Source of the DNA: Podarcis vaucheri
Taxonomy: Eukaryota
Length of the DNA: 64,000 nt
Strand: one strand, 5' to 3'
Assembly: GCA_965113315.1 (NCBI GenBank)
Contig: OZ220365.1
Notes under the pieces: model-generated
The model's database searches: none
What the model was told of the DNA's origin: nothing
Seen by the model: only the letters and a program-made list of their open reading frames with translations
Part shown: positions 18,303 to 59,266 of the stretch, piece after piece
Layout: each line of letters begins with the position of its first letter
Position numbering within the stretch: position 1 is the stretch's first letter
Translations under genes and position numbers: made by a program

Positions 18303-18778
18303 TCATAGAATCATAGAATCATAGAGTTGGAAGAGACCACAAGGGCCATCGAGTCCAACCCCCTGCCAAGCAGGAAACACCATCAGAGCACTCCTGACAT
18401 ATGGTTGTCAAGCCTCTGCTTAAAGACCTCCAAAGTAGGAGACTCCACCACACTCCTTGGCAGCAAATTCCACTGTCGAACAGCTCTTACTGTCAGGAAG
18501 TTCTTCCTAATGTTTAGGTGGAATCTTCTTTCTTGTAGTTTGGATCCATTGCTCCGTGTCCGCTTCTCTGGAGCAGCAGAAAACAACCTTTCTCCCTCCT
18601 CTATGTGACATCCTTTTATATATTTGAACATGGCTATCATATCACCCCTTAACCTCCTCTTCTCCAGGCTAAACATGCCCAGCTCCCTTAGCCGTTCCTC
18701 ATAAGGCATCGTTTCCAGGCCTTTGACCATTTTGGTTGCCCTCCTCTGGACACGTTCCAGTTTGTCAGTGTCCTTCTT
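18303..18778 (-). mobile_element. Young CR1 LINE 3' fragment
   Basis: ORF2 C-terminus [32 protein letters not shown]...[10 protein letters not shown]; (ATTCTATG)n tail. Confidence 0.95.
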
Positions 18779-22692: not shown

Positions 22693-25292
22693 ACATCAGG
22701 CCATTTTTTAAAAAAGAAGGCAGTTTAAGAACCATACTCTGTTAACTAGCATGAGTTCTGGAACATTCCCCCAACCACTGATGTAGTCAATGTAAAAGGG
22801 AAAAATGTAAAATGAGCTAGGGATTTCTGTGAGACAGTGAGCAGTTGCTAAGCATCTTTTCCTCACTAGAGGAGGAGCAGAACCCATCAAAGTAACATTG
22901 GGATTACAAAACTTAGAATAACTTGTTGGGCCCAAGCGCTTCTTAATTATTCAAGGCATTAATAAACAAGAATTATTTTTAAATTTTGAATACTATAAAA
23001 GTCTTTGAGATTACCCAGCATATGCTAATTGAATTTCTATCATTTTCCAGATGTTTATACAGTGCTCTGTATGTTGACAGAGGTCTCTGAACCTTCCAAG
23101 AGAAATGCTTTCCATGTCTGATTTATGAATAATTGTAGCCACTAAATTCATAGCGGAAGACATCTTTGAACATTGTCTTTTGAGTGGAGTAAGAAATCTG
23201 AAACCAAGGGACCTCTATCTGGATGCTTTTCCAGTTGGGAAAGGCTTGTGAGCAGACATGTCTTTCTGCTGGAGAAAGTTCACTTGTTTGCTGTTGATCT
23301 ATGCCTGCCTGTTCACTTGAATTATTTGGTTTACTAGGCATTATCTTAACAGACTTGTTTCCAAGACAGTTATTCTGCATGACCTAAATCTTTTGTTACC
23401 CACAACAGCATGTGAGCAATCTATTTTTAGCTACAACTTTTTCTTTTAACAGAAGTCTGAGTCATTGCCACTCAGGTATGCCTTCACACCTTTCAGTTCT
23501 TGTTGCATAATCTCACTGTCAAATTGGCTTGATGAGGATTTGAAACACTGATTTAACATGATGATAATCCAGAGCCTCCTTGGGCCAAAAAGCCATGTTC
23601 TCTTAAACTGCAAGCTCAGCCTATAATCCAGAGCAGAGGGGAAGCTCCTGTCATGCCCCCAGACTGGAAACTCATGTTTGTAGTCAGACATTAAAACACA
23701 GACCCCCAATTTGGCTGTAACAGAAAACTGATTCAAGAAACATCAGAAGTACTGAACTGCGGCATATCAGAGTTGGGAGAGGGAAACGGAAAGAGCGGGC
23801 ACAAAGCTGGTGAATAATTCTCAGGCTTCATACACTGAACCATGCTTAAGTAATTGTAATATTAGTGCTATACCATTACAATGAGATGNNNNNNNNNNNN
23901 NNNNNNNNNNNNNNNNNNNNNNNNNNNNNNNNNNNNNNNNNNNNNNNNNNNNNNNNNNNNNNNNNNNNNNNNNNNNNNNNNNNNNNNNNNNNNNNNNNNN
24001 NNNNNNNNNNNNNNNNNNNNNNNNNNNNNNNNNNNNNNNNNNNNNNNNNNNNNNNNNNNNNNNNNNNNNNNNNNNNNNNNNNNNNNNNACATCAGGCCAT
24101 TTTTTAAAAAGAAGGCAGTTTAAGAACCATACTCTGTTAACTAGCATGAGTTCTGGAACATTCCCCCAACCACTGATGTAGTCAATGTAAAAGGGAAAAA
24201 TGTAAAATGAGCTAGGGATTTCTGTGAGACAGTGAGCAGTTGCTAAGCATCTTTTCCTCACTAGAGGAGGAGCAGAACCCATCAAAGTAACATTGGGATT
24301 ACAAAACTTAGAATAACTTGTTGGGCCCAAGTGCTTCTGCAGAGTAATTATTCAAGGCATTAATAAACAAGAATTATTTTTAAATTTTGAATACTATAAA
24401 AGTCTTTGAGGATTACCCAGCATATGCTAATTGAATTTCTATCATTTTCCAGATGTTTATACAGTGCTCTGTATGTTGACAGAGGTCTCTGAACCTTCCA
24501 AGAGAAATGCTTTCCATGTCTGATTTATGAATAATTGTAGCCACTAAATTCATAGCGGAAGACAATCTTTGAACATTGTCTTTTGAGTGGAGTAAGAAAT
24601 CTGAAACCAAGGGACCTCTATCTGGATGCTTTTCCAGTTGGGAAAGGCTTGTGAGCAGACATGTCTTTCTGCTGGAGAAAGTTCACTTGTTTGCTGTTGA
24701 TCTATGCCTGCCTGTTCACTTGAATTATTTGGTTTACTAGGCATTATCTTAACAGACTTGTTTCCAAGACAGTTATTCCTGCATGACCTAAATCTTTTGT
24801 TACCCACAACAGCATGTGAGCAATCTATTTTTAGCTACAACTTTTTCTTTTAACAGAAGTCTGAGTCATTGCCACTCAGGTATGCCTTCACACCTTTCAG
24901 TTCTTGTTGCATAATCTCACTGTCAAATTGGCTTGATGAGGATTTGAAACACTGATTTAACATGATGATAATCCAGAGCCTCCTTGGGCCAAAAAGCCAT
25001 GTTCTCTTAAACTGCAAGCTCAGCCTATAATTCCAGAGCAGAGGGGAAGCTCCTGTCATGCCCCCAGACTGGAAACTCATGTTGTAGTCAGACATTAAAA
25101 CACAGACCCCCAATTTGCTGTAACAGAAAACTGATTCAAGAAACATCAGAAGTACTGAACTGCGGCATATCAGAGTTGGGAGAGGGAAACGGAAAGAGCG
25201 GGCACAAAGCTGGTGAATAATTCTCCAGGCTTCATACACTGAACCATGCTTAAGTAATTGTAATATTAGTGCTATACCATTACAATGAGATG
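22693..25292. repeat. 1.2-kb direct duplication flanking a 200-N assembly gap (22693-23888 vs 24089-25292)
   Basis: Copy 1 ends exactly at the gap and copy 2 starts exactly after it; the copies differ mainly by 1-nt indels. Confidence 0.95.
23889..24088. other. Assembly gap (200 N)
   Basis: Run of N. Confidence 1.
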
Positions 25293-27118
25293 TGTTCACA
25301 CATTACATTCAGTGAGTATGCAACCTGTGAATACACCAGTAGTTGTAGTCTGTTATCTGTGTACACAGTAGTTGCTGTACAAATCAACAAGTGTACATGT
25401 TCACAGAAATACTTGTGCTTTGGGGGAGACAGTTTGTACTTGCATTCAATGCAGATTGTCTATGGGCTACTCATATTACAACTGTTTTCACCACCTTGTA
25501 ATACTTACCAATGGTTGTGTTTTAAAGTCAGTGCAGCCTACCTTAGTGGGTTATAATGTTAAGGTGCTGAGGCATATTTATTGGAGAACTAACAACAAAT
25601 TTAGTAAGTAATGCTACAATCCTATAGACCAGTGGCTCCCAATTAGCTAAGTACTGCAGAGTACTACAGACCCCCTTTTTTTCAAAAGCCAAGCCATGGA
25701 CTTTCGAAAATGTTGACAAATCTATGGTAGTTATTGCTACATGAATGGTGCTGCAGACGCCTGGGTGGGGAATTGGGAACCACTGCTAAAGACAAGTCTC
25801 AGGAACACAATTGCTCTTTCAGGTAAATAGGCATGCACAGGATTGAAATGCAAATTATTTAGAAGTAGTGTTGCCAATTCGCAGCACATGAGTTCTACAA
25901 GTTTTCTCATCACATATCTTTTACCACTGCTGTTACAACATTTCAGAATTTAAAACTAAGCTGGTGTATTATCAATATATGCCTATTCATGATATTATTT
26001 TGTTACATGTTATTGATTTCTATGGAAGTAAACTGTCCATCGATAAGGGAGAAGGGGGTTGCTAGTATTAAACATTACACACAGAACCTCTGCCAAAATT
26101 CTAAACTTACTGCCCTGGGCTCCTTTGGAAGCAAGGTCATGACACAAATGTAATAAATACTTGCAAAACGAGAGAAATGGTACCCACAGAGATCTGATGA
26201 AAGCGACAACAAAGTATTGCCCAAGACAAGGCAAACTCTGCATAAAAAGCACAATTAAGTTTCCAGTTCTCATGCTTCTGGAGTACAGCTTGAAAACGTG
26301 TGACTGCATTATGTGACTGGGGGACTGGCACCTGATCTAATGTGTACCCTGAACCTAAACCAAGTCCCACAGATTTTAAAGGAAGTTACTTTCTCCCTAT
26401 TAAACCCACAGTATTTGTATAGCACATTGCCCATTTACCTGGGAGTAACAAGGTGCTTACTTCTCTCAGAAGCATGCCCCAAAGCCTGCATTGCAAGTCA
26501 ACTCTCCTGATCGCCGCCAACCCAAGCGAGATCTTCAAGAGTGGCAACCAAGTTCTGATTTTGCACTTGGCGATCGGCTAGCTACAAAACCTGACACCGG
26601 CCACTCTGGGGCAGCTTTCCTCGCCGTGACCAAACCAACCCCTTTAGCCATCCGGAGGTGGCCGGGGGAGGAGCACGCGGATAACCAAGCCATGGCGCAA
26701 TCCTACGGCGCGTGTTACTTTATTTTTATACAGCTGCCTTCAGGTAAACGTAGCCCAGGGCGGTTCACCACATTTTATCCAGGCGCCGCTCCACTCCCCT
26801 GAGTTGCTCGGAGCTTACTCTCGAGTAAGTGTGCTTAGGATTGCAGCCTAAACCTAGACCTGCACGCTGAGCTGCTCTGAGGCAGCGGGAGGAGGAGGAG
26901 GAGGAGGAGAACGACGGGGAAAGCCCCTTCGCCCTGCAAAGAGCGAGGCCGTGCAAGTGGGCGGCTTCTCCTCCGAAACCCGCATGCGGCACATGGCCGG
27001 GTTGATCGGACCCCGGAAGGCTGCTTGGAGGCGCACCTACAAAGGCACCTGCGCCTCTGCAAGCAACGTGGCGCGGCGGGGCTGCCCGGAGCCCGCGGCG
27101 GCTGGTCGGGCGAAGTAC

Positions 27119-27238
27119 CTGCACCATGATGGCCAGACGGAGCGAGTCCTTGGCGATGTTGTCGCCGCATTTCTTGCAAGAAGCCCGGCCGCTCTTGGCG
27201 TACTCGGCCCGGTACATCTTCTCTGCAGGCTCCGCCAT
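27119..27238 (-). CDS. PARP1: PARP1 exon 1 CDS (ZnF1 N-half)
   Basis: [40 protein letters not shown]; 120 nt; donor GTACTT. Confidence 0.98.
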
Positions 27239-27278
27239 AGCTGCACCAGCAAGCCCGTCCGAAATCAGCTCGGGCTAA

Positions 27279-27338
27279 GGAGGAGGAGGAGGAGAGGAGG
27301 AGGCGGCGGCGGCGGCAGCAGCAGCAGCAGCGGCGGCG
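27279..27338. repeat. Compound trinucleotide repeat (GGA)n(GGC)n(AGC)n in the probable PARP1 5'UTR
   Basis: ggaggaggaggaggagaggaggaggcggcggcggcggcagcagcagcagcagcggcggcg, 40-100 nt upstream of the ATG. Confidence 0.9.
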
Positions 27339-28104
27339 CCAAAAAACCAGCCGGATGGCTTCTTACACAGCCAGGCTCCCGCCCCTCGGTACCGAGCGCA
27401 GAGCGATCGAGCCGCGCCCCGTCCAAGCCGTCTTCCTTTCGGCGATCGATTAGCCGTGCCGCGCCCAGGAGTCCTAGGTCTCGAGAGCGACCCCCACAAA
27501 CTCTCCAGGGAGGATGACGAGGAATCGTCGCGCTCGGCTGGTGGAGCCGCGAGGGAAAGGGCCGGCGGTCACGTGGTCGGCGAGGGCGTTCTATGGAGTT
27601 GCCCTCGGCGTTTAAGGGCGTTCTCTCTTCTCCCTCGCTCTGCCTCCTCTGGGTGGCGGCACGTGCTTGCTCCTTTCTCGGCAGGCAATCCTTTATGGAG
27701 TAGCTGTGCCGTGACTGAAAAGCCCTTCCGGATGGAATGCTGCTAAAGTCAGGCTGTTGTCCTACGCGCGCATGTCCCTGGGAGTAAGAACCCATTGGGG
27801 TCTACTTCTGAGTAAACAGGCATGGGGTTTCAGGTTGCGTAGTAGAGCAGAGGGCTGCAAGCTTTTGGGGATGTGCGTGTTTGTGTGGTATGATCCAGTG
27901 TTTTGCTGTTACCTAGAAATCTTCCACGGTCAGTCCGGGAAGTAACTTTGTTAAGAGCAACGTTTCTTCCCCTGCAGATTATTCTAGATTCCCCAAGCTT
28001 CCCCTGAAAATCAATTTCCTCAGAACATTCACATGTTATAATGGTTTACCGTAAAAAGATCCTCGTGCATGAGTGAATGGTATTTCTGCTTAGCTAGGAG
28101 TTAG

Positions 28105-34609: not shown

Positions 34610-34775
34610 TTACCTCGTATCCTATAGTTTATGATATTTGAGGTGCCTTTCTATAGACCACTGAACTCCAGTTTAATCAAACAGAAGCATAGGTGACTCT
34701 TTACAGGGACCAGTTTGAAACAGAAGACTCCCAGAAGTATCAGTGGATCAAAGTAAGATGATCTAGTGCTGGCTT

Positions 34776-35136
34776 AAAGGTAAAGGTAAAGGTACCCCTG
34801 CCCGTACGGGCCAGTCGTGACCGACTCTGGGGTTGCGTGCTCATCTCGCTTAAGAGGCCGGGAGCCAGCGCTGTCCGAAGACACTTCTGGGTCACGTGGC
34901 CAGCGTGACGAAGCTGCTCTGGCGAGCCAGCACCAGCACAGCACACGGAAACGCCGTTTACCTTCCCGCTATAAAGCGGTACCTATTTATCTACTTGCAC
35001 TTAGGTGTGCTTTTGAACTGCTAGGTGGGCAGGAGCTGGGACCGAATGACGGGAGCTCACCCCACTGCGGGGATTCGAACCACCGACCATATGATCGGCA
35101 AGTCCTAGGTTTTACCCACAGCGCCACCCACGTCCC
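34776..35136 (-). mobile_element. Sauria SINE (Squam1-like)
   Basis: Head GGGACGTGGGTGGCGCTGTGGG, (ACCTTT)n tail, 11-bp TSD AGTGCTGGCTT. Confidence 0.92.
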
Positions 35137-36592: not shown

Positions 36593-39095
36593 CGGCTTGG
36601 TATCCTGACCCTTTCATCATCTTGGTCACCCTCTGTACATGTTCCAGCTTGTGAATACTCTTCTTAAACTGGGGTATGCAGAACTGGACACAGTAGTCCT
36701 GGATGGGAGTGTTCCTGCATACAAAGGTGCATGGTTCTTGGTGACAAAACTTGTATTCTGCACCTCTTGATTTTAGCTCTGCCACATCTTCCTGCGGAGT
36801 CTCTTCCACTGGTTGGTCGATGACTTCTTCCATTCCCCATGAGGCTCTGCTCTCTGCAGGAGGGGCAATGAAGAGAGCCCTTAGTTCTGATTCCGTCTCT
36901 TTAGTGTCATAAGGTGAGGACTTCTGTCCTCTTTTCCTGGTCACCAGCCTTCAAGCCCCTCTCCTCCTCCTCCCCCCCTATCTGGGGCTGCCCAAGTATG
37001 TCAGATCCTCACAGAACCCAGAGGTCCATGTCAATATCTGTCCTGTATCGATCCTGTCATTCTTTTTTTTTTTTGAAGGGAAATGTTGTATTTTGATTAA
37101 CTTCCCTCAAAACCAACCTTGATCCAATTGAAGGGGGAAAGCACAGTCCAGACACATTTTAAGCCAAAAATCTGTACACAGCCTTAGTTGTGCTAGAACA
37201 AGTAAGTTAAATAAGACCACGATTTAATGAGCAGGAAGCAGAATATCTCAAGGAGGTTTCCAAAAGTCTTCCTGGAAGATGATACCATCCAGAAAGGTCG
37301 TGTCTGAGATTATGAATCCCAAAACCCTGTGAAAATTGGGTTGGAATGCTGGTTTTTATTATCTTGTTTATATTAATGCTGGAGCTCTGAACTTCACTGG
37401 TACAGGTTATGAAGGAGGCAGGGAGAATTGTTTCCTGAAAGAAACAAAACTTTGGCTCCCTATAGGTGCTGGGAATGGGCAGCGTTTCTAATTCTAAGGA
37501 CAAGCTGGTATGAGGCACAGGGCATGTAGAAAATAATGTGCCCTACAGGGAGAGTGCTTTGGTGTGGCTTACAGGCTCACAGCCATTTTGCAGTTTCCAT
37601 AGAAACACGGAGGAGATTTTGAAACAACTTGCTGTGAAAGTTGACAAATCCATGAAGCATTGCCTGCCAATGCCCTTGTGGTGTTCGAGTGCATTTAACT
37701 CTCTTGTTTTCATGTGAGGTGAATGGATGTAATACAAACTATCAATTAAAGCCTTTTGAAAGTTGGAAATAAAGAGACTAAGTGGTTTTAAAACAACAGA
37801 GGGGTGGAATTGTGGAACGGTATCTTTATTCTCACAAGAGCAAAGAACGGCTGTATTCACAGATCACGTTAAACCACAGTTAAGCTGGGTTTAACTGTGG
37901 TTTGATGTAAACGAGCAGCATGCTCAGGAATTCCTACATCATTTCTCCCCAGATCTTGGCCTTGGCAGGAGCAACAAAGTACAAGTCTTGGATTGTAGTA
38001 TCATCGGAACCTGGGCTCATGGTTTGTCTCCCCCAGACAAACTACATACTGTTAAGACAAGAACAAGTGTTGATTACTGTTTGCGGTTCTTTGGAGAGAA
38101 GCAAACTACAGCTGTGAGTATGGACGACATAGTAATCCAAGGCTTGTTGTGTTTTGTTCCTCCCAGTGCAGTGTGGTGTGGCCAGAAGCTAAGAAGAGTC
38201 TGTCATCGCTCTCCCCAGCATTACCACTTTAAATATAACCAGCAGTGTGCTTTATAGTAATTGCAGCCTGTGTTTTTGATCTGGTGAACTTCAGGGGCCA
38301 ACAAGGCAGAGTTATTTATTTGCTGTTTCAATGTTTTATGAGTTTTCTTTTATTATAATGAAGACAGCAGGAGGTTGAGTGGCTGGCAGGGTCTAGCTGA
38401 GAATCCATATTTTCAAGTCTATTTTTGAGCAGACACAAAAGTTGGATCTCATCTGAAGCTGCAGGCGCAGTTATTATGTCTCTGGAGACATGGCAGGCCT
38501 GCACCTGCTTGACGTTAAACAATGCAGCTTGATTCAACGGTGTTCTAGAACTTGCCAAACAAAGAGTCTGGTGATCTCTATGGAGAAAAGGAATATTGTT
38601 GGCTACACACGATGGCTATATGCTATCTTCCAGATCAGCAGGCCTCTGAATAATAACAGCTCCTAGGGAGCAGTTAAGACGATTGCCCTCATATCTAGCG
38701 AGAGAGCTTTTCATGCTCTTATCTCCAGAATCCCAGAAGTATCTTTTTGGCCGCTGTAGGGAACAGGATTCTACTCGAGTAGACAGACCTTTGGTCCAGC
38801 AGAGTTATTCCATTTTCTTAATCCCTTTGTACTAGTTTAAGAGACCCTCTCCTCCTGTGTATAACATGTACTCCTAAATCAGCCTTGCAGATAAATAAAC
38901 AAACCCACAAAAGGTACAAACTCCACCTAGCAGGCTGGGATGGATTACTCTGCACTGGTCAAACTTTCCTTCCTCCATGTCTAGTATAGAAACCAAGTAG
39001 GCTGGTGAAGGAAGAATGGAATGATCCACACCTCTTCTGCCAGGCTGTTCACTCGCCTACATGGAATTTTGGGTCGCCTAGGGCTACCAAGTACA

Positions 39096-39449
39096 GGACA
39101 CGGGTGGCGCTGTGGGTTAAACCACAGAGCCTTGGGCTTGTCGATCAGAAGGCCGGCGGTTCGAATCCCTGCGACAGGGTGAGCTCCCGTTGCTCGGTTC
39201 CTGCTCCTGCCAACCTAGAAGTTCGAAAGCACATCAAAGTGCAAGTAGATAAATAGGTACCGTTCCGGCGGGAAGGTAAACGGCGTTTCCATGCGCTGCT
39301 CTGGTTCGCCAGAAGTGGCTTAGTCATGCTGGCCACATGACTCGGAAGCTGTGCACCGGCTCCCTCGGCCAATAAAGCAAGATGAGCGCCGCAACCCCAC
39401 AGTCGTCCGCGACTGGACCTAATGGCCAGGGCTCCCTTTACCTTTACCT
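39096..39449 (+). mobile_element. Sauria SINE
   Basis: GGACACGGGTGGCGCTGTGGGTTAAACC head; 13-bp TSD TAGGGCTACCAAG. Confidence 0.92.
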
Positions 39450-40481
39450 TAGGGCTACCAAGCAAGTTGTGAAATTTGAGGCTGCCCTGATCTATTCTGT
39501 GCCCCTGTGCAGTTAAAGTTGCTGGCTGATATACTGCGCTTGAGCCAGATGGATGCAGAAGACAATGCAAACCTTTGATGAACAGAATACAGAAGTGGAT
39601 ATAAAATGTCACCAGCAGCAATAGCACTAATGCAAGAGAAAACTGTTGAACTGGATTAGGTTGGGGGGGGGTGTGGAGAGACAATGATCAAGCAGTTCTT
39701 TCAAAAACTGTCCTCTGTGGTTACCCAACATGCCTGGAATAAACTCCCAATTATGAGCTATTGCAGCAACATCTGCAGGACCTCAAGAGGCTCCCAAATT
39801 ACTAAACTACAGCCAAGGTCCCCTGGCACACATAACAACAAAAACAAAGGCAACAAACCAGAGGCAGAAATCTTTTAAGAGAGTTAAAATAGAAGGCTGC
39901 ATTTTTCTTGCCCCTCAAGGGTTTCCAAATGCTGCCCCAGCAGCTTCCTAACACTTTATTTCAGCAACACTTTGAAGCTCTTTAAGAAAATTGGGATAAA
40001 TAAGTGGCGCTGTTTTTTTCCAGTTTGCAGCCAATAAACTAGAACTTTTCTTACTTCCCTGCAGTGATTAAAGCCTGTAACCACAGCAAACGAAATGGCT
40101 ATATAAATCCAGATAGCAAGTGTTACCTCCCTATAGGCGAGAAAATTAGAAAGGAAGAAAATCCCAGCCTAGTAACCCCTACTCTGCAACCACAATACAT
40201 TTCAGCCAGAAAAACATAAGAGGTAATGAAGCTGTTGCACATGTTCTCTGAGCCGTTGCTTTATTTTCATCTGGCTGAACTATTAAGGGAGATTACATGA
40301 CCCCCCTCTGGGCATGGAAAGGTGTGGAGGGAATCGTGAGCAAGCTCTGTTCCTCTGTCATCACCTGCACATTCAAGCCAGTGGCAACTGATGCCCATTG
40401 GAATTGGTGGGCTGGAAGGCAGGGAGCCAAACAGTAGGCAGAGCCAGAGCCAATGGCAGGCAGAAACCAACTAATTCTAGC

Positions 40482-41153
40482 AGACCCTCCAAGTGTCCCT
40501 ATTTTCCAGGGACAGTACTGGATTTACGGAAGGCGTCTCAGTTTCTGATTTGATCCCAGAATGTCCCGCTTTTCTTTAAAGGTAAAGGTAAAGTGACCCC
40601 TGACCATTAGGTCCAGTCGTGACCGACTCTGAGGTTGTGGTGCTCATCTCGCTTTATTGGCCGAGGGAGCCGGTGTACAGCTTCCAGGTCATGTGGCCAG
40701 CATGACTAAGCCGCTTCTGGCAAACCAAAGCAGTGCATGGAAACGGCGTTTACCTTCCCGCTGGTGTGGTACCTATTAATCTACTTGCACTTTGATGTGC
40801 TTTTGAGCTGCTAGGTTGGCAGGAGCAGGGACCGAGCAACGGGAGCTCACCCCATTACGGGGATTCGAACCGCCAGCCTTTTGATCGGCAAGTCCTAGGC
40901 TCTGTGGTTTAACCCACAGCGCCACCCACGTCCCGTTTTGCTTTTCTTTAGGATGTCCCTATTTTCACTGGAGGACATGGAATTATGCAACCCCGTAGCA
41001 GAGGAGATAAGAAACTATACAACCTCTAGAAGACATCTGAAGGCAGCTCTGTATAGGGATTTAAAAAAAAATATTTAGTTATGTTTTTATAATAGTGTAT
41101 GTTGGAAGCTTCCCAAAGTGGCTTGACAACCCAGTCAGATGGCTTGGGTATAA

Positions 41154-44344: not shown

Positions 44345-45131
44345 TACACTTATTCAAAGACAGGATAATAGTTACCACTGTGACATCCCTTTCTTTTCTT
44401 TTGCTTTCAGAAGAAAAATACAAATACTTTCAAGCAATGCAAGCAAGTGTGGGATCACCTTAAGAAAATTTATTCTCCCTTAGAGGCAATGGAATTGATT
44501 AATAATGTTTAAAATGAGCCAAGAAGTGGAGCTACCCCCATCCTGCATGTTTAACTGAGGCCCACATTTGTCACTGCAGGAACCCTCTTATAAGATGCAT
44601 TCCTTCCTGTGTCTGAGGGTTCCCGCAAGGACAAACGTGTGCCTCAGTTAAAAACAAAAGGAAGTTTCCTCCTCTTCAGAATAATTTTCAAAGTATTCAT
44701 TTGCAAAATGCTGTGGATTTAATTAATTAATGTAGCACCCATGTGATTAATCAACTCAGTTTTCTTTGTTCAGGTGTCATATAGTTTTCACGTGTGGCTT
44801 GACAGCTGAGATGTGCATTTTCAGGACCTGCCTCATTCCTCGAACTATAACTTGTTTTAACTGTTTTTAATTCTGCATTTTAAATTGTCATAGTCCACTC
44901 TGGGACATGCTGGTAATAGGTTTAATAATAACAACGAGAGGCTGTTGTCCCTGTTTGCTCTGCTTGCTAGACCCACCTACCACCTAACCCCTTTCCCTCA
45001 CACCTGGCCAACTCCTCCTCCCTTTATGTATATATATATATATATATATGCTTTCGTAGATTTTCACGGGTACAGGAATGCAGGTTTTGGTGTCTTCGGG
45101 TGTCTTCCCGTGTAAGAGTCGGGGTGTCTGT

Positions 45132-45169
45132 GCGACGTTTCGACGAGGTCTCACTCGTCATCTTCAGGC
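45132..45169 (-). ncRNA. Minimal type I hammerhead ribozyme motif (PLE-type)
   Basis: Minus strand GC-CUGAAGA-U-GACGAG(UGAGAC)CUCGUC-GAAA-CGUC-GC. Confidence 0.85.
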
Positions 45170-45401
45170 TGGTGCTTTCGGCTTCTTGTTACTGGAACAG
45201 AGCAGAGTCTGGTGTTTGAGTTCCTATAAATACTGTTGAGGGGTGTGGTGTATAGCCTCCAACGTTCTGGGCAGAGAGGAAGTTCCTAGATTAGTGTGTC
45301 TTTTCTTCTTTTGTTCCTTAATTACTTGAGGGATATCTTGGGTGATTTCATGAGTGATATTCTGAATACCACTGGGTGGGTCATTAAGTGTAGATTAGTT
45401 G

Positions 45402-46571
45402 CTAAAGCTTTCGTGTCTTGACCTCTTGAGCTTGTGAAGAGTTTTTCTGAGAAGATGGCTGTGCTGCATTTAGTTGTGCTCTGGCTTGGCTTCGTGTATA
45501 GGGGCGAGCTGTGGTTTTGTGCCTTGTGCCAGCCAGATCTGTGTAGGGATTGCAGGGGGGTGCAGCATCCGGAGGTGCCACTATAGTTTGGCTACTGGAT
45601 GGAGTCTGTAATATGTCTGTGGAGAGGGTCTGGGTTTGGGTCTGGTGTGGTTGATTGGTGACGGCGTTCTGTGTGCCTCTGGTTCTGGTGTCGGTTTTTG
45701 TGGGGAGGGCTAATTTCCAGATGTCTGGCAGGCGGGACGTGTCGTCACTCTTGTTCATGTTGTGAGGGTGTTTCTCTATCTCGATGGCTTCCATGATTAT
45801 TCTCTTGTGGTGATGTTCCATGTTAAAGAGCAATTTGGAATCTGCAAAATTAATTTCGTGTCCTGTTTCTTTCATGTGTTGGAAAAGAGAGGAAGTTTTT
45901 TCTTCTTTTTTGACGGCATTCTTGTGTTCTGCGATACGTGCATTTATTCGTCTGTTTGTTTGTCCAATGTACGTGGCTGGGCAGACTTTGCAGGGTATTT
46001 CATAGACCCCTTGGTTTTCCAGCTGGATTTTGTCTTTTGGGTTTCTGAGGATATTGGCTATTTTTTGGTTGGTGCAGAAGGCTGTTTTGATATTGTGTTT
46101 ATGGAGGATTTTGCTAATTTTGTCTGTAGTGCCCTTGATATAAGGAAGGAGGGCCATGCCATTGTTTTCTTCTGTGTCTTGGTTTTTGGGGGGTGTTTCT
46201 TTTTGGATTAGCTTCGTAACCCTGTTTTTCTGGTATCCATTGGCGATTAACACATTTGAGAGATTCTGTAACTCAGTTGTCAAGTGGTCTTTGTCAGCCA
46301 GGCGTTTGGTTCTGGAGATGAGAGTCTTGGCTATGGAGTTTATTTGTGCAGGGTGGTGGTGTGATTGTGCATGTAAGTAGCGGTTGGTGTGTGTTTTTTT
46401 CCGGTAGATAGTGTGTCCTAGGGAGCCATCAGGTTTTTTGTAGATTAGGACGTCAAGAAAGGGGAGTTGGTTGTTGTCTTCTATTTCCATAGTGAATTGT
46501 ATTTTGGGGTGTAGGCTGTTGAGATGTGTGAGGAAGCTATCTAGTTTTTCTTTCCCGTGTGGCCAAATTAT
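45402..46571 (-). CDS. PLE reverse transcriptase C-terminus plus GIY-YIG endonuclease (partial)
   Basis: The 362-aa ORF-track protein extends without a stop upstream (IIWPHGKEKLDSFLTHLNSLHPKIQFT) to the truncation point; the catalytic YVDD region is missing. Confidence 0.88.
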   Translation of the reverse strand: MIWPHGKEKLDSFLTHLNSLHPKIQFTMEIEDNNQLPFLDVLIYKKPDGSLGHTIYRKKTHTNRYLHAQSHHHPAQINSIAKTLISRTKRLADKDHLTTELQNLSNVLIANGYQKNRVTKLIQKETPPKNQDTEENNGMALLPYIKGTTDKISKILHKHNIKTAFCTNQKIANILRNPKDKIQLENQGVYEIPCKVCPATYIGQTNRRINARIAEHKNAVKKEEKTSSLFQHMKETGHEINFADSKLLFNMEHHHKRIIMEAIEIEKHPHNMNKSDDTSRLPDIWKLALPTKTDTRTRGTQNAVTNQPHQTQTQTLSTDILQTPSSSQTIVAPPDAAPPCNPYTDLAGTRHKTTARPYTRSQARAQLNAAQPSSQKNSSQAQEVKTRKL

Positions 46572-46595
46572 ATATTTGCTTGTTTTATCTTAGGG

Positions 46596-47183
46596 TTTTT
46601 TTAAAATGATATTTATTATTATTTCATAAACAATAAAACAATAAAAATAATAAAAACAAGTTCCAACAAATTCAAAAAGCAAAACAGAACAAAGATACAC
46701 GATAGAAAAACAGTTGATAGAAAGAAATGAAATTAAAAAAAAGAATAAGAACAAAGAAAAAAGCCAAAAATCAAAACTGAAAAATAGATCAATATTTTCA
46801 AATCTTATATTTTCTTCACTAATTTCTCGACCTCTTCACACCTCCCATTTTGTATTCCAGTTCAGGTATTTAATTCAGCAAATCCTTACCCTTTAACTTT
46901 CAACCTTACTCCATATGTTAACCTATTATTATAAATATCCATTTTCAATTATCAGTCCCTATTTACATTTTCATAAGCATCTCTTTACCAGTACCACTTA
47001 TTTTCATTCAAACGTCAATTCAACATTCCTTAATTTTACAGTGCTTCTGCAAGTAATCTTTAAACTTCCTCCAATCTTCCTCCACCGACTCTTCTCCCTG
47101 GTCACGGATTCTGCCAGTCATCTCTGCCAATTCCATGTAGTCCATGACCTTCAGCTGCCATTCTTCCAGTGTTGGTAGCTCCT
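46596..47183 (-). mobile_element. L1 3' end (ORF2 C-terminus, 3'UTR, poly-A)
   Basis: WKTQELPTLEEWQLKVMDYMELAEMTGRIRDQGEESVEEDWRKFKDYLQKHC; AATAAA and A-tail at about 46596-46617. Confidence 0.88.
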
Positions 47184-48848
47184 GTGTCTTCCAGTCTCCT
47201 CCTCCCTTTATAATTGACCAAACCCTACTCCCTTTATGTCTTGCGCACTCCCTACCTATCCCCTCACAATTCACCCCAAACCACTTCCCTTCCCTTACAG
47301 CTTGCCCCAACCCACAGTGCCTCACACTTTTAGAGGAAGGTGAGAGGACTGTTTGCTAAACCACTCTCTGAAGTGCCTTCCACCCTCCTTTAAACATCAC
47401 TATAGTGATATTTTCCCCTCTGGACTCCGCCTGCATTGTTTAAGTGACTTTGCTGACACCAGTGTAAGCTTAGATTTGATGGTTTTGTGGGGATCCATTG
47501 TAAAAAGCATGCGAATTCAAGAGAACCCACTTGAGTTCTATGGGATCTCACTTTTATCCTAACTACGTGGAAAAGCAAAAGGTGTTTGTCTCTGACTCAT
47601 GAGCTTGCTTCCTCACCCCCATCTTTCTTTCTGCAGGGGCTGCTTTCTCTCTGGGTTTTTGCTCACTCTCTGTCACCTTATTTTTTCTCTCACATACAAG
47701 CACCTCTGTCATTCCCAGCTTTTTCTCCCAACTAGCAGCCAATCACTCCATCTTCTTCCTCTACCATCCTCCATTAGGGAAATTTTTGGGTTGCAGTAAC
47801 TTCCTCCCCAACTCCCTTGGTTGTCATCTTAACCCCGTGCTCTGTTGCCCTATTCTTCCCCCTACCCCGTCATCAGAATTGTCTGCTGGATCAGACAAAC
47901 AGCCCATCTAGACCAGCATCTATTCTCACAGAAACTGATCAGGTGCCTATGGAAAGCCCCAAACCATGACCTGGGGTCGACAACACTCTACACACTTGTG
48001 ATTTCCAGCAACTAGTATCAAAGGTGCACTGCCTCCGACAATGAAGTGGAACATACTCAATGTTGCTAGAAGCTCTTTATAGACTTTCCCTCCATGAATT
48101 TGGCCAATCCTCTCTTTAAAGTCATCCAAGTTGGTGGCCATCTGTCTTCTGCTCCACCCCCATCACTGTGTCTTCCTCTTCCTGGTCACTTCAGACACTG
48201 CCTGTTCCTACCCCCACTCGTGATGCAGCTGCAGCAGTATCCCTCTCCTCTCTCACAATTTTGCTGAATGTGTCAGCCACCATCTTTATTTCTCAAGAAT
48301 GCCTCTGGCCCCCATTACTTGCCTCTTTAATATCCTTTCTTAATTGCCTCAGTGTCAGTTTCTGTTCCCACAGGTAGGGTGGTGGCGGCAGTTTTAAGTA
48401 CTGATTTCCTCTTGTAGTTTCCCCCCTATTATTTTTATAACAAAATAGTTATTAAAAACAGCACTTTAGTTGTTTTTATCACCTATAACTGAAGCACTTA
48501 AAATTACAGGAAAACATCTGAAAAGGAACCTAATATCAAAAATGTGTTCACTCAATTATCCTTGATTGTATTTTACTGTGATTGACTGGCATATGACTCA
48601 GGAACTTCTGTATTGCTCTGCATTTATTTGCTGTGACATGATGTTTTATAATAATATGAATGTTATTTATTCATTTATTTGATCCATTTCATTCCAGGCT
48701 TTCCATTGTCTAAATGTGTTAGACTTTAATTATGGCTTCTATTTAAGCTGGTAAAACGGCAATACATTACAATACAATGACTAATGGAAACATAGAATCA
48801 CAGAATTGTAGAGTTGAAAGGTGGAGAGTTTAAAAGCTCTTTTTGCCC

Positions 48849-50046
48849 TGTGAGATCTTACAAGAGCATCCCAGAACTGGTGCTGGGTCCTTGTGGGTAT
48901 ATCTATTTTTATTATGAGTAAAGATTATCTAGTATGTCCCTAAGGACAGCCAATTAAACCTTTTACTTCATAAGCCAATTTCTTGGTCTTAAAAAATAAT
49001 CACTAATATTTCTCTTAAAATTATTTAAGATTTTATTGATTACAGCAGGTTAATTCTTTTTGGTTTGTTTTAGGTCTATGTCTAGGATACTGAATATGGA
49101 GCAAGGTTATTACATAAAGATAAGATACATTACCAGAACCTGGAGCAGGAGATCCTTCCTCAGAGGCAGCTGAGAGCTGAAGGAGTCTGCCCTTACAATC
49201 TAAACATAGGGTATATATACTCATAATTCACTGAGAGTGAGAAATGGTCAAAGGCCTGGAAACGATGCCTTATGAGGAACGGCTAAGGGAGCTGGGCATG
49301 TTTAGCCTGGAGAAGAGGAGGTTAAGGGGTGATATGATAGCCATGTTCAAATATATAAAAGGATGTCACATAGAGGAGGGAGAAAGGTTGTTTTCTGCTG
49401 CTCCAGAGAAGCGGACACGGAGCAATGGATCCAAACTACAAGAAAGAAGATTCCACCTAAACATTAGGAAGAACTTCCTGACAGTAAGAGCTGTTTGACA
49501 GTGGAATTTGCTGCCAAGGAGTGTGGTGGAGTCTCCTACTTTGGAGGTCTTTAAGCAGAGGCTTGACAACCATATGTCAGGAGTGCTCTGATGGTGTTTC
49601 CTGCTTGGCAGGGGGTTGGACTCGATGGCCCTTGTGGTCTATTCCAACTCTATGATTCTATGATTCTAAATGAGAGTGAGCTTTGAGAGTGGTAAATAAC
49701 ATTAAAAGAGGCACCCCCACCATTGGTGAGAACCAATGAAATACACTCACAGTTGAGTAGTGATTTCAGACTCAACAGACACCTGAGTTTGGGATTATTT
49801 TTAGAGGTTTACCGAAGGTTTCACTTTGAAAATAAACAAATTCTGAGCCTGTCGGTAAGGAACCTACTGAGAGCCTGAAGGAGACTCAGGAGAGTTCTCC
49901 AGGTAGAAGAGAAACCAGGTCTGAAGCAAAACACAGTGTAGTGAATACTTGACAAGATTACTTCAGCTACACATGTAGTGTTAGAGAAGCTATTCTGTTT
50001 GAAGAACCCGAAGGGAAGTGGTTCCTTTCTGTGAGGATCATCTTAC
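48849..50046 (+). mobile_element. Probable solo LTR interrupted by a CR1
   Basis: Starts TGTGAGAT and ends ATCTTAC; TATA-like GGGTATATATA at about 49210, AATAAA at about 49831; no clean TSD. Confidence 0.45.
49242..49670 (+). mobile_element. Young CR1 LINE 3' fragment
   Basis: Near-identical inverted copy of 18303-18778; 10-bp TSD TGAGAGTGAG (49232-49241, 49671-49680). Confidence 0.95.
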
Positions 50047-52188
50047 CTCTTAGGACATATCCACACTACAGATTGAATCAGATTAACAGCCATTGCCTGT
50101 CCCCAAGACAAGGGACAAGGGTCTCCAGCTTCCATCAGCTTCTGTTACCAGGATGATGGGCACTTTAGTTCAGCCACTTCTGGAGGTCCTCTTTCTCTGA
50201 GCTAAGGATCTCCAATAGAGGATTCTCAGCATCACTCTCCCAAAACTCCCATTCCCCACGTTTCTTGATGAGGACAAGCCGTAATTAAAGGTGGGGTAGA
50301 AAGAATATAGGGTGGTAGCATAGACAAGACCTTTGGATGGAAAACGTTGTGCACATATAAGCTAAGCCAGGGAGAGGATAATAAGGCTCGTCCTCTGCCT
50401 TGCTGCAATGACAATACAATAGCCTTGCAAGAAAATTATGTTTGCTTTGATTTATGCCACAAGTGTTATTTGTCTTCCCCTTGTGCCTCATAATTACTAG
50501 CAGTATTACGGCAGCTTACTGGGTTCTCGTATTTAAAAAAATTAATGTCGAAGTGGGGCATAAGCTCTGTTGATTGTCAATGCAACATGACAGAAAAGCC
50601 ACCCAGGTAACCGAATGCTGAGGGCACAATTGATTTTCTGCCAGAGAGTCTACTGTTCTCTCGCTGTGTTCTCTTTTAAAATGAAAAATACAAGGCCTCT
50701 TCTCATGTTTTATTGTTGCTGCTTTTCCTCAGGACTGAATTTAATCCTGATAACTCAGATGTTAGGCTGCATATACCCCTTTGCTGGAAGAGAGCTTAAT
50801 AAGTCTGTTGGCTATGAGCAGGATGCTTCCTTCCAAAAATCCAGATTAACTATAGCTCTGAATTCTTTACGCAACTTTTAAGGTTATCATTCATTTTTAT
50901 GTATAACCCTTCCCAAGTGCAAGGTGCTGTTAAGAATTTGAAAAAATGGAACAGCACCGACCTCATTTCATACTGAAATTCGCTTGATGATGATGAATGA
51001 GGGAGAAAGGCTTGCTGGAAGCATTTTGCCTGTCTCCCCTCCCCCCACGTAACACTAGAACTCTAATGAAGCTGAATGTTGGGCAGACAAAATAAAGTAC
51101 GTCTTCACAGACTTAGCGTGGTTAAGCTATGGAACCTGCATCCACAAGAGGCTTCAAGCCTAAAATGAAGAGGACTGAGAAAAATCCTTTACAGAGAATG
51201 GACACATGTTGCAAAATTTGTTAAGAGGTTCCATAGCTTCATACAGTGTGTGGATGGTGGAAATATTCAGAGATAGTAATTTTATTTAGTTTCGGTGAAC
51301 AAGGTTGCCAACTGACAAAAAACCCAACCCATCCTGGCATGGGTTTAAAGCCAGCTTTAAAGCCATCCTGATGTGCAGAAACAATCAGGGATGTTTTTCA
51401 TAGCATTTAGATAGGCATTATAATATCCTGGAAATAATAATGAGTGCCAGCTGAGCTGCTGTTAAAGGCACAGGAACAGAGACTAGTTAAAATATGGGCA
51501 AACTGTTAGTGAAGGTGGAAAAACTCTTAAGGTGAAGAAATAAAACTATTTTTTTTCTGAATTGCTCAAGAACACATGACTCAGTCTAGAAAGGAACAAT
51601 GCTATTCCTAATGAAGCATTTATCTAGTTTATGATGTATACCCCTATGCAAAGGGCCAATGTGGGAGGGAAGACACCACTAAAATCCCATTTACAGTAAT
51701 ACAGGATTTAATATGGTTTAATAGTGTTATGCTTTGAGCTGCGATAAACAGTCTCCCTGAATGAGCCAAAACAATAATAAACTCACAGGGTCTTACTCTG
51801 AGCTGGAAGCTCAGTGGGAATTATTTTTTAATTAAGGAGAATTTGTTTCAGTTTAGCATGGAGCAAATACTGGTGACATGTTTCTGATTAATAAGCTAAG
51901 GGTCAATGTAGTTGTAAGCAGACTCCACCTGCCTGCATGTGGCTATTACCTTGCTTTGGAGAACATGAACATGCTGATTTGTCAGTCCTCTTAGATATGC
52001 TACCAGCATTATTTTTCTGGCTCATTCGTATGCAAACGAAGTGTAAAGATGAGCTGCTTAGTGGATTGGCAGGAAGAGGCAGGAAGGGAGACCTTGAAAT
52101 GTAATTGTTGGTGATACCTTCCAAATAGGGAAGTATGGCACCTTATGTGGAGGTGGAAAATGGTTCACTAGTCAAACTTTCTATTCAT

Positions 52189-52540
52189 AAAAGGTAAAGG
52201 GACCCCTGACCATTAGGTCGAGTCGTGACCGACTCTGGGGTTGCGGCGCTCATCTCGTTTTATTGGCCAAGGGAGCCGGCGTACAGTTTCTGGGTCATCT
52301 GGCCAGCATGACTACACCGCTTCTGGGGAACCAGAGCAACTCACGGAAACGCTGTTTACCTTCCTGCCGGAGCAGTACCTATTTATCTACTTGCACTTTG
52401 ACGTACTTTCGAACTGCTAGGTTGGCAGGAGCAGGGACCAAGCAACGGGAACTCACTCCATTGTAGAGACTCGAACCACCGACTTTCTGATCGGCAAGTC
52501 CTAGGCTCTGTGGTTTAACCCACAGCGCCACCCGCGTCCC
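52189..52540 (-). mobile_element. Sauria SINE
   Basis: Same family; head GGGACGCGGGTGGCGC at 52540. Confidence 0.9.
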
Positions 52541-58925: not shown

Positions 58926-59266
58926 CCGGGTGGTGCTGTGGGTTAAACCACAGAGCCTAGGACTTGCTGATCAGAAGGTCGGTGGTTTGAATCCCCGTGA
59001 CGGGGTGAGCTCCCGTTGCTCAGTCCCTGCTCCTGCCTAGCAATTCGAAAGCACATCAAAGTGCAAGTAGATAACTAGGTACCACTCCGGCGGGAAGGTA
59101 AACGGCGTTTCCGTGCCCTGCTCTGGTTCGCCAGAAGCGGCTTAGTCATGCTGGCCACATGACCCGGAAGCTGTACGCCGGCTCCCTCAGCCAATAAAGC
59201 GAGATGAGCGCTGCAACCCCAGAGTCGGTCATGACTGGACCCAATGGTCAGGGGTCCCTTTACCTT
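58926..59266 (+). mobile_element. Sauria SINE
   Basis: CGGGTGGTGCTGTGGGTTAAACCACAGAGCCTAGG ... GGGGTCCCTTTACCTT. Confidence 0.9.

What the first reader, a model, noticed from the sequence alone, without database searches (positions are those of the whole stretch)
45132..45169. Hammerhead ribozyme in the pLTR of a young Penelope element
Seen (minus strand): intact core CUGAAGA and GAAA, one extra U, a perfect 6-bp stem II (GACGAG/CUCGUC), a palindromic ACGU stem III without a loop, and a GUC cleavage triplet with predicted cut between 45134 and 45133. Stem I is only 2 bp (GC/GC). Known: PLE pLTRs carry minimal type I hammerheads that cleave efficiently as dimers through the palindromic stem III. 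Inference: a retroelement-ribozyme system; the very short stem I suggests it needs a dimer, distal pairing or protein help.
Basis: partly seen in the sequence, partly recalled or inferred. Interest (0 to 1): 0.7.

Follow-up and report, generated by a model that had tools for sequence, protein, structure and literature searches.

The report
Penelope hammerhead overlapping its start codon
This is the known minimal self-cutting RNA motif of Penelope-like jumping genes, one of about 11,000 identical copies in this lizard genome; it overlaps the element's start codon and is likely inactive in this lone, truncated copy, so it is largely ordinary.

Summary
It is the only hammerhead-like fold in the window, with 0 hits in 100 shuffles. 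It ends a 5'-truncated, lone copy (45049-46570) of a very young Penelope/Poseidon element. The 36-nt motif has 11,068 exact matches in the genome. The 'extra U' is the U of the element's AUG: in a tandem copy that AUG opens a 906-aa RT + GIY-YIG ORF, 45% identical to anole PAc. PAc has the same layout and cuts only with its own protein (PMC11167929). 'Cleaves efficiently as dimers' is wrong: published activity is low. Dimerising does not lengthen stem I, and no distal partner was found. Copies end at +84 or +113-118, past the cut at +28, so uncut RNA was likely copied. RNA reads from a related lizard show no ends at the cut. In them 35-40% of sense reads carry A>G at core A14 and A15.1, likely ADAR editing. 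Hyper-editing of lizard Penelope is published; I found no report of hits in the ribozyme core. The scan noted this family before on other DNA. New member of a known kind.

The parts
45132..45169 (-). Minimal type I hammerhead motif (stem I 2 bp, stem II 6 bp, palindromic ACGU with no loop 3, predicted cut 45134|45133)
   Evidence: 11,068 exact genomic matches of 45167-45132
45159..45161 (-). AUG formed by hammerhead positions A9, the extra U and G10.1; start codon of the element's ORF in tandem copies
   Evidence: opens 906 aa at L041:3598 and 609 aa up to a frameshift in L031/L042; same position in PAc
45138..45139 (-). Core A14 (45139) and A15.1 (45138); read as G in 35-40% of sense RNA reads of a related lizard, likely A-to-I editing
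45049..46570 (-). 5'-truncated lone copy of a Penelope/Poseidon element, 1522 nt, 99.4% identical to a full-length unit (9 mismatches, no gaps)
45402..46570 (-). 3' part of the ORF: end of RT, GIY-YIG endonuclease, low-complexity C-terminus; frame open
   Evidence: GIY-YIG E 6e-4, 20.4 bits, under the 22.6 cut-off
45162..45401 (-). 240-nt untranslated part of the terminal repeat between the ORF stop and the next AUG
   Evidence: unit period 2961 nt
45049..45077 (-). The PLE 'tail': 29 nt between the two family 3' ends (+84 and +113 from the AUG)
   Evidence: 16 of 31 copies end at +83/84, 14 at +113-118, 1 runs on
45029..45048 (.). (TA)10 at the 3' junction, typical target/tail of this family
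46596..47195 (-). 3' fragment of an older LINE (L1-like by recall; Pfam gave no family for a longer copy) ending in an A-rich tail; the Penelope copy sits just behind it
   Evidence: (5046 first-look candidates, 40 scored, 85-96% identity apart from itself)
47196..47211 (-). Upstream copy of a 16-bp target-site duplication that brackets the LINE fragment plus the Penelope copy
   Evidence: 2 occurrences in the window
45012..45027 (-). Downstream copy of the same 16-bp target-site duplication

Best explanation
The motif is the minimal hammerhead of a very young Penelope/Poseidon retroelement family and overlaps that family's start codon; in this lone truncated copy it is likely an inactive passenger, and in tandem copies it likely cuts only weakly and with help from the element's own protein. 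Shown here: the anatomy, the copy number, the AUG overlap, the tandem unit, and family 3' ends that lie past the cut site. Inferred from PAc: the RT-endonuclease protein binds RNA near the ORF start, helps the core to fold (probably by pairing two ACGU palindromes, since stem III cannot close in one strand), nicks AT-rich DNA and starts reverse transcription at +84 or +113-118 on RNA whose 3' ribozyme is uncut. Inferred and untested: a cut at +28 would remove the leader and AUG from the ORF, so cleavage would act as a late step or a feedback that ends translation of that RNA and is not needed to make the insertion end. In host read-through transcripts most copies would be locked in a duplex with an inverted neighbour and edited, which would silence the motif.
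For: Anatomy and chance control. 11,068 exact matches run through the cut site to +30, against 11,540 matches of the looser core pattern that stops at +26. 30 of 31 position-ordered copies end at +83/84 or +113-118 and none at +28. AUG opens a 906-aa RT + GIY-YIG ORF in a 2961-nt tandem unit, 45% identical over 773 aa to P0024, whose N-terminus equals the translation of the PAc template. PAc keeps the core and AUG position with different stem I and stem II letters (read by eye), cuts only with protein, does not need the cut for insertion, and shows no RNA-seq ends at the cut. Here, too, no pile-up of read ends lies at the cut and depth runs through it. Modelled active dimer -19.1 kcal/mol against -29.4 for the best cofold; a GUC/GAC hairpin hides the triplet in the monomer. 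82 of the first 100 listed copies have an opposite-strand copy within 6 kb.
Against: No cleavage assay exists for this family. The RNA runs are from a related organism, the two bulk runs are one study, about 12% of each was read, and fragmented libraries can miss cut ends. Conservation among copies reflects youth, not selection: no compensatory change was seen within the genome. Rfam models miss the motif. Nearest-neighbour energies are unreliable for such junctions. Stem I is one pair shorter than in PAc, so activity may be lower or absent. Dimerisation was not shown for PAc either.
Confidence: 0.8

Rival explanations
1. Tandem transcripts are cut at two successive ribozymes and ligated into a 2961-nt circle, which restores AUG and ORF and is the template for rolling reverse transcription (model of Cervera and de la Pena 2014).
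For: A circle would also give ends at +84/+113 and tandem copies; tandem units exist; 43 of the first 100 listed copies have a same-strand copy within 6 kb.
Against: PAc ribozyme mutants insert normally in vitro; no ends at +28 in RNA. The 'goes back 2951' joint is expected from any linear copy, because the reference was 10 nt short of one unit, and is no sign of a circle.
Confidence: 0.12
2. The motif no longer cuts in this family; it is kept as coding sequence, start-codon context or a protein-binding hairpin.
For: 2-bp stem I, competing hairpin and unfavourable dimer; no cut ends; hammerhead-less Naiad elements reach very high copy numbers.
Against: Core, G10.1-C11.1 pair and palindrome are kept while stems and reading phase differ from PAc (S-K-R-R here, E-T-S in PAc), so coding alone does not explain them; PAc is catalytically active with protein.
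Confidence: 0.12
3. One reading: an efficient dimer-dependent ribozyme, or one completed by distal pairing, that makes RNA ends at 45133/45134 from this locus.
For: The palindrome can pair between two strands (-3.1 kcal/mol in the model).
Against: Only one copy in the window; published dimers are weak; neither of the two duplexes returned between the 3' strand and 250 nt upstream extends stem I in register.
Confidence: 0.05

Closest known systems
PAc (Poseidon_Ac) hammerhead, Anolis carolinensis; Frangieh et al. 2024, PMC11167929
   Same: Core CUGAnGA-U-G...C-GAAA-CGUC, AUG at A9-U-G10.1, 6-bp stem II, very short stem I, no loop 3, two 3' ends bounding a tail, AT-rich targets, ORF 45% identical.
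   Different: Other stem letters; stem I 2 bp instead of 3; stem II all Watson-Crick; cut at +28 instead of +29, so another reading phase; ORF 906 instead of 836 aa; untranslated part 240 nt (the PAc template holds 126 nt); no biochemistry here.
Minimal hammerheads (min-HHR) of metazoan PLEs; Cervera and de la Pena 2014, PMC4209133
   Same: Extra nucleotide between 9 and 10.1, G10.1-C11.1, palindromic 15.2-16.2, long helix II, location in the terminal repeat.
   Different: Helix I 2 bp against 4-5 bp in S. mansoni (D. virilis also has 2 bp but a longer helix III); copies here are nearly all identical, as in the D. virilis re-invasion, not variable.
Hyper-edited Penelope elements of a lizard; Porath et al. 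2017, PMC5625713
   Same: Massive A-to-I editing of Penelope-derived RNA in a lizard (over 40,000 sites reported).
   Different: The passage I read gives no positions; here the changes are placed on ribozyme core residues, in a relative of the window's organism.

Membership tests
Type I hammerhead ribozyme | Core C3-U4-G5-A6-N7-G8-A9, G12-A13-A14-A15, U16-H17 | tested here: met
   core definition from PMC3088659 passages
Type I hammerhead ribozyme | Three stems that can form in one strand | tested here: not met
   stem III has no loop, stem I probability 0.03 or less; expected for the minimal, dimer-type form
Type I hammerhead ribozyme | Match to an Rfam hammerhead model | tested here: not met
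Type I hammerhead ribozyme | Self-cleavage 3' of the NUH triplet | not testable with these tools
   no read-end pile-up in RNA of a related lizard, which is weak evidence; shown for PAc with protein
PLE minimal hammerhead (min-HHR) | [quoted passage not shown] | tested here: met
   U45160
PLE minimal hammerhead (min-HHR) | G10.1-C11.1 pair and helix II longer than 4 bp | tested here: met
   G45159-C45142, 6 bp
PLE minimal hammerhead (min-HHR) | Palindromic 15.2-16.2 with little or no helix III | tested here: met
   ACGU 45138-45135
PLE minimal hammerhead (min-HHR) | Position in the terminal repeat of a PLE | tested here: met
   one per 2961-nt unit, on both sides of the full ORF in L041
PLE minimal hammerhead (min-HHR) | Compensatory changes in the stems | tested here: inconclusive
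   none within this genome; one two-sequence comparison with PAc shows different paired stems (by eye)
Penelope/Poseidon clade PLE | Single ORF with RT and C-terminal GIY-YIG | tested here: met
   RVT_1 E 7e-15; GIY-YIG E 0.001, under the Pfam cut-off but colinear with P0024
Penelope/Poseidon clade PLE | No Neptune/Nematis Zn-finger linker between RT and endonuclease | tested here: met
   the linker aligns to P0024 without insertion; no tree was built
Penelope/Poseidon clade PLE | Tandem pLTRs, inverted 5'-truncated partners, optional 30-40-bp tail, AT-rich targets | tested here: met
   features as in PMC8557442 passages

The most novel reading that the evidence does not exclude
The ribozyme is a protein-triggered switch that cuts the start codon off the element's own mRNA, and the host silences it: inverted copies lock it in a duplex and ADAR rewrites catalytic A14 and A15.1 in over a third of sense transcripts. 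That would also explain why cut ends are not seen in lizard RNA-seq. With about 11,000 identical copies and intact tandem ORFs, this family would be a direct test bed for what PLE hammerheads do in vivo.
Probability: 0.2. Interest if true: 0.55.

Novelty: new member of a known kind. Interest (0 to 1): 0.22.

Why it matters
As a single locus it matters little: it is one of about 11,000 identical motifs of a described class. The family has some use. The role of PLE hammerheads in vivo is still open, and this is a very recent burst with an intact tandem ORF, a stem I shorter than that of the one vertebrate element studied biochemically, and a different reading phase through the core. The likely editing of core adenosines gives a testable reason why cleavage products are missing from RNA-seq.

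Tried and rejected
Rfam scans found no hammerhead. Two looser patterns meant to find diverged families for covariation gave 7 matches against 3 control and 38 against 275 control; most hammerhead-like ones were point variants of the same family, and no second family was established. An extended or distal stem I was rejected: the base after the 3' GC is A or C in all 51 flank strings (overlapping loci included) and in 31 of 31 copies, and is followed by C or U in related organisms; none restores pairing. The run search listed no holder on record as RNA; raw RNA runs with the same species label were laid instead. In one search, 6 of 8 begin/end rows were shown, none at the cut; one search lists none. 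The lack of shown fixed differences inside the 38-nt motif between species is no evidence of selection (15-20 variable places in 451 nt, 64 rows hidden). ETS- or KR-type N-termini among homologous proteins had no control and are only a lead. 3' transduction by the LINE was judged less likely than later insertion, as there is no poly(A) at the far end and the LINE looks older. Literature searches for Penelope + ADAR + ribozyme (0 papers), hammerhead ribozyme + ADAR + retrotransposon + inosine (5 listed, none on this by title), Penelope + A-to-I editing (4) and Penelope + Podarcis (6, none on this by title) found no report of core editing or of this burst; the library lacks most subscription papers. 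Supplements of PMC11167929: file 2 is an image-only PDF, file 3 a run list, file 1 was not opened, and the GenBank file cannot be read. Figure S2 there and the alignments in the supplement of PMC4209133 (not opened) may already show reptile 2-bp stems.

Full report
Observation. A descriptor of my own (core, stem II of 4 bp or more, stem III palindromic or looped, stem I of 2 bp or more) finds this single site in the window and none in 100 shuffles. Rfam finds nothing relevant at gathering score or at E up to 10. The folding model supports stem II only; stem I has probability 0.03 or less, and the GUC triplet tends to pair with a GAC just downstream.

The element. The motif lies 240 nt behind the stop of an open frame with a weak GIY-YIG match. 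Other genomic copies match the window from 46570 to about 45049. This 1522-nt piece is 99.4% identical to a full unit and has no second copy in the window. It follows the A-rich tail of an older LINE fragment, and both are bracketed by a 16-bp duplication, so it most likely inserted into the tail of that LINE (inference; the L1 label is recalled). The locus lies about 18 kb upstream of a PARP1-like gene on the same strand.

The family. The genome holds 11,540 matches of a core pattern (control 25) and 11,068 exact matches of the 36-nt motif (control 0). L041 holds a tandem with a 2961-nt period. There the AUG made of A9, the extra U and G10.1 opens 906 codons with RT and GIY-YIG. The nearest named proteins are from Podarcis muralis (97%) and Vipera latastei (82%); an Anolis carolinensis protein, P0024, is 45% identical over 773 aa, and its N-terminus is the translation of the PAc template. 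So the 'extra U' is part of the start codon, and stem II, GAAA, the cut site and the 3' strand of stem I are coding sequence.

Where copies end. Of 31 distinct copies in the position-ordered loci L043-L072 (copies with under 200 nt downstream in the locus were dropped), 16 end at +83/84, 14 at +113-118, one runs into the ORF, and none ends at the cut at +28. The pattern that picked them stops at +26, so it would have caught such ends. This is the two-site 'tail' described for PAc, and it implies that the RNA copied was uncut at its 3' ribozyme (inference). Among the first 100 listed matches on one contig, 82 have an opposite-strand copy within 6 kb, 43 a same-strand copy, and 11 stand alone; this is not a random sample.

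Stem I. It is 2 bp in every copy seen. In a modelled dimer the palindrome gains 3.1 kcal/mol, closing each stem I costs 0.6, and the active arrangement (-19.1) is far above the best cofold (-29.4); no duplex extends stem I in register. A dimer thus supplies stem III but leaves stem I short. Published context: D. virilis Penelope has a 2-bp helix I, and minimal hammerheads cut weakly even as dimers (PMC4209133). The PAc ribozyme cuts only with its protein, is not needed for insertion in vitro, and leaves no ends in RNA-seq (PMC11167929). From the printed PAc template I read a 3-bp stem I and a 6-bp stem II with other letters, the same core and AUG, and a cut at +29.

RNA. Raw RNA reads of a related organism (mostly 90-99% alike) cover the motif on both strands, show the same two family ends, and show no place where many molecules begin or end (in one search none among the 6 of 8 rows shown). 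They carry strand-split changes: A>G in reads of the sense RNA and T>C in reads of the antisense RNA, assuming the usual stranded protocol. These make up 72 of 87 and 62 of 81 variable places in X23 and X24, against 7 of 20 and 5 of 15 in the contig runs X18 and X19. At A14 the counts are 33 of 89 and 36 of 93 sense reads against 0 of 46 and 0 of 69 antisense reads; at A15.1, 32 of 89 and 37 of 92 against 0 of 46 and 0 of 67; at N7, 20 of 79 and 29 of 81 against 0 of 50 and 0 of 58. In the contig runs G at A14 and A15.1 is under 0.1% of depth. I tested 19 of the 40 rows shown (those with mixed A>G or T>C; 64 rows were hidden). All 19 lean the expected way, with p below 0.01 in both runs except one row in X23 at 0.086. 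The likely cause is ADAR acting on hairpins of inverted copies. Limits: both RNA runs are one study, the contig runs are other organisms and not on record as DNA, there is no DNA of the same animal, and three of the T>C sites have a 5' G that ADAR disfavours (recalled). Heavy editing of Penelope RNA is published for a lizard (PMC5625713) and for X. tropicalis (PMC10636886). My searches found no report of edits in the ribozyme core. That inosine at these positions lowers cleavage is inferred from the strict core consensus and the reported 10-fold loss for changes at 15.1/16.1, not tested.

Mechanism. Shown: anatomy, AUG overlap, tandem unit, ends past the cut, frequent inverted partners. Taken from PAc: protein-assisted cutting, internal start of reverse transcription, AT-rich targets. 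Inferred: pairing of two palindromes, removal of the AUG as a late or feedback step, and silencing in host transcripts. The window copy has no partner and no 5' part of the ORF, so it is likely a passenger. Rivals are a circular unit-length template, a vestigial motif, and an efficient dimer ribozyme; see that field.

Papers seen. PMC4209133: parts 1-2 of 4 of the text. PMC11167929: parts 1-3 of 4, supplements 2 and 3. PMC8557442, PMC5625713, PMC10636886, PMC3088659, PMC13725137 and bioRxiv 10.64898/2026.07.22.740005: passages only. Others: search listings only.

Earlier notes. Three notes from other pieces of this genome describe the same kind of element. I had reached the start-codon and PAc reading before opening them.

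Verdict. Real, well explained, a new member of a known kind. Interest 0.22.

Noticed in passing
window 27244 to at least 1101, minus strand; CpG island about 26000-28000: PARP1-like gene: first exon [24 protein letters not shown] at about 27.2 kb, zf-PARP and WGR exons downstream. The Penelope copy lies about 18 kb upstream and points towards it.
   Followed up: partly
window 46571-46595: 25 nt between the LINE tail and the 5' break of the Penelope copy match neither; they end in a 10-nt word that also occurs at the family's +113-118 end. Possibly target microhomology or a tail remnant; no control run.
   Followed up: no
window 22705-25225: Near-perfect tandem duplication with a period of about 1.4 kb (97-100% identity) in the first intron of the PARP1-like gene; recent duplication or assembly artefact.
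   Followed up: no
window 18306-18732 and 49242-49668: 427-nt inverted pair, 100% identical, 30.5 kb apart; likely two very young copies of a LINE 3' end (CR1-like by recall).
   Followed up: no
L041:3400-3720 (reads of runs X23, X24): Strand-split A>G / T>C changes cover the whole terminal repeat, not only the ribozyme.
   Followed up: partly
proteins P0004, P0007, P0022, P0026, P0027, P0035, P0036: N-termini of distant homologues show M..ETS or M..KRR, two with LKM in front, which would fit the same ribozyme-over-start-codon layout in two reading phases. No DNA and no control.
   Followed up: partly
L081, L095, L106: A few unrelated hammerhead-like pattern matches in the genome, fewer than the control count; possibly remnants of another family.
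   Followed up: no
window 34774-35109, 39093-39450, 40576-40936, 52182-52539, 58927-59266; 7257, 11991, 31346, 44127, 55404: Two further dispersed repeat families: a SINE-like one (Sauria SINE by recall) and a MITE-like one with terminal inverted repeats.
   Followed up: no
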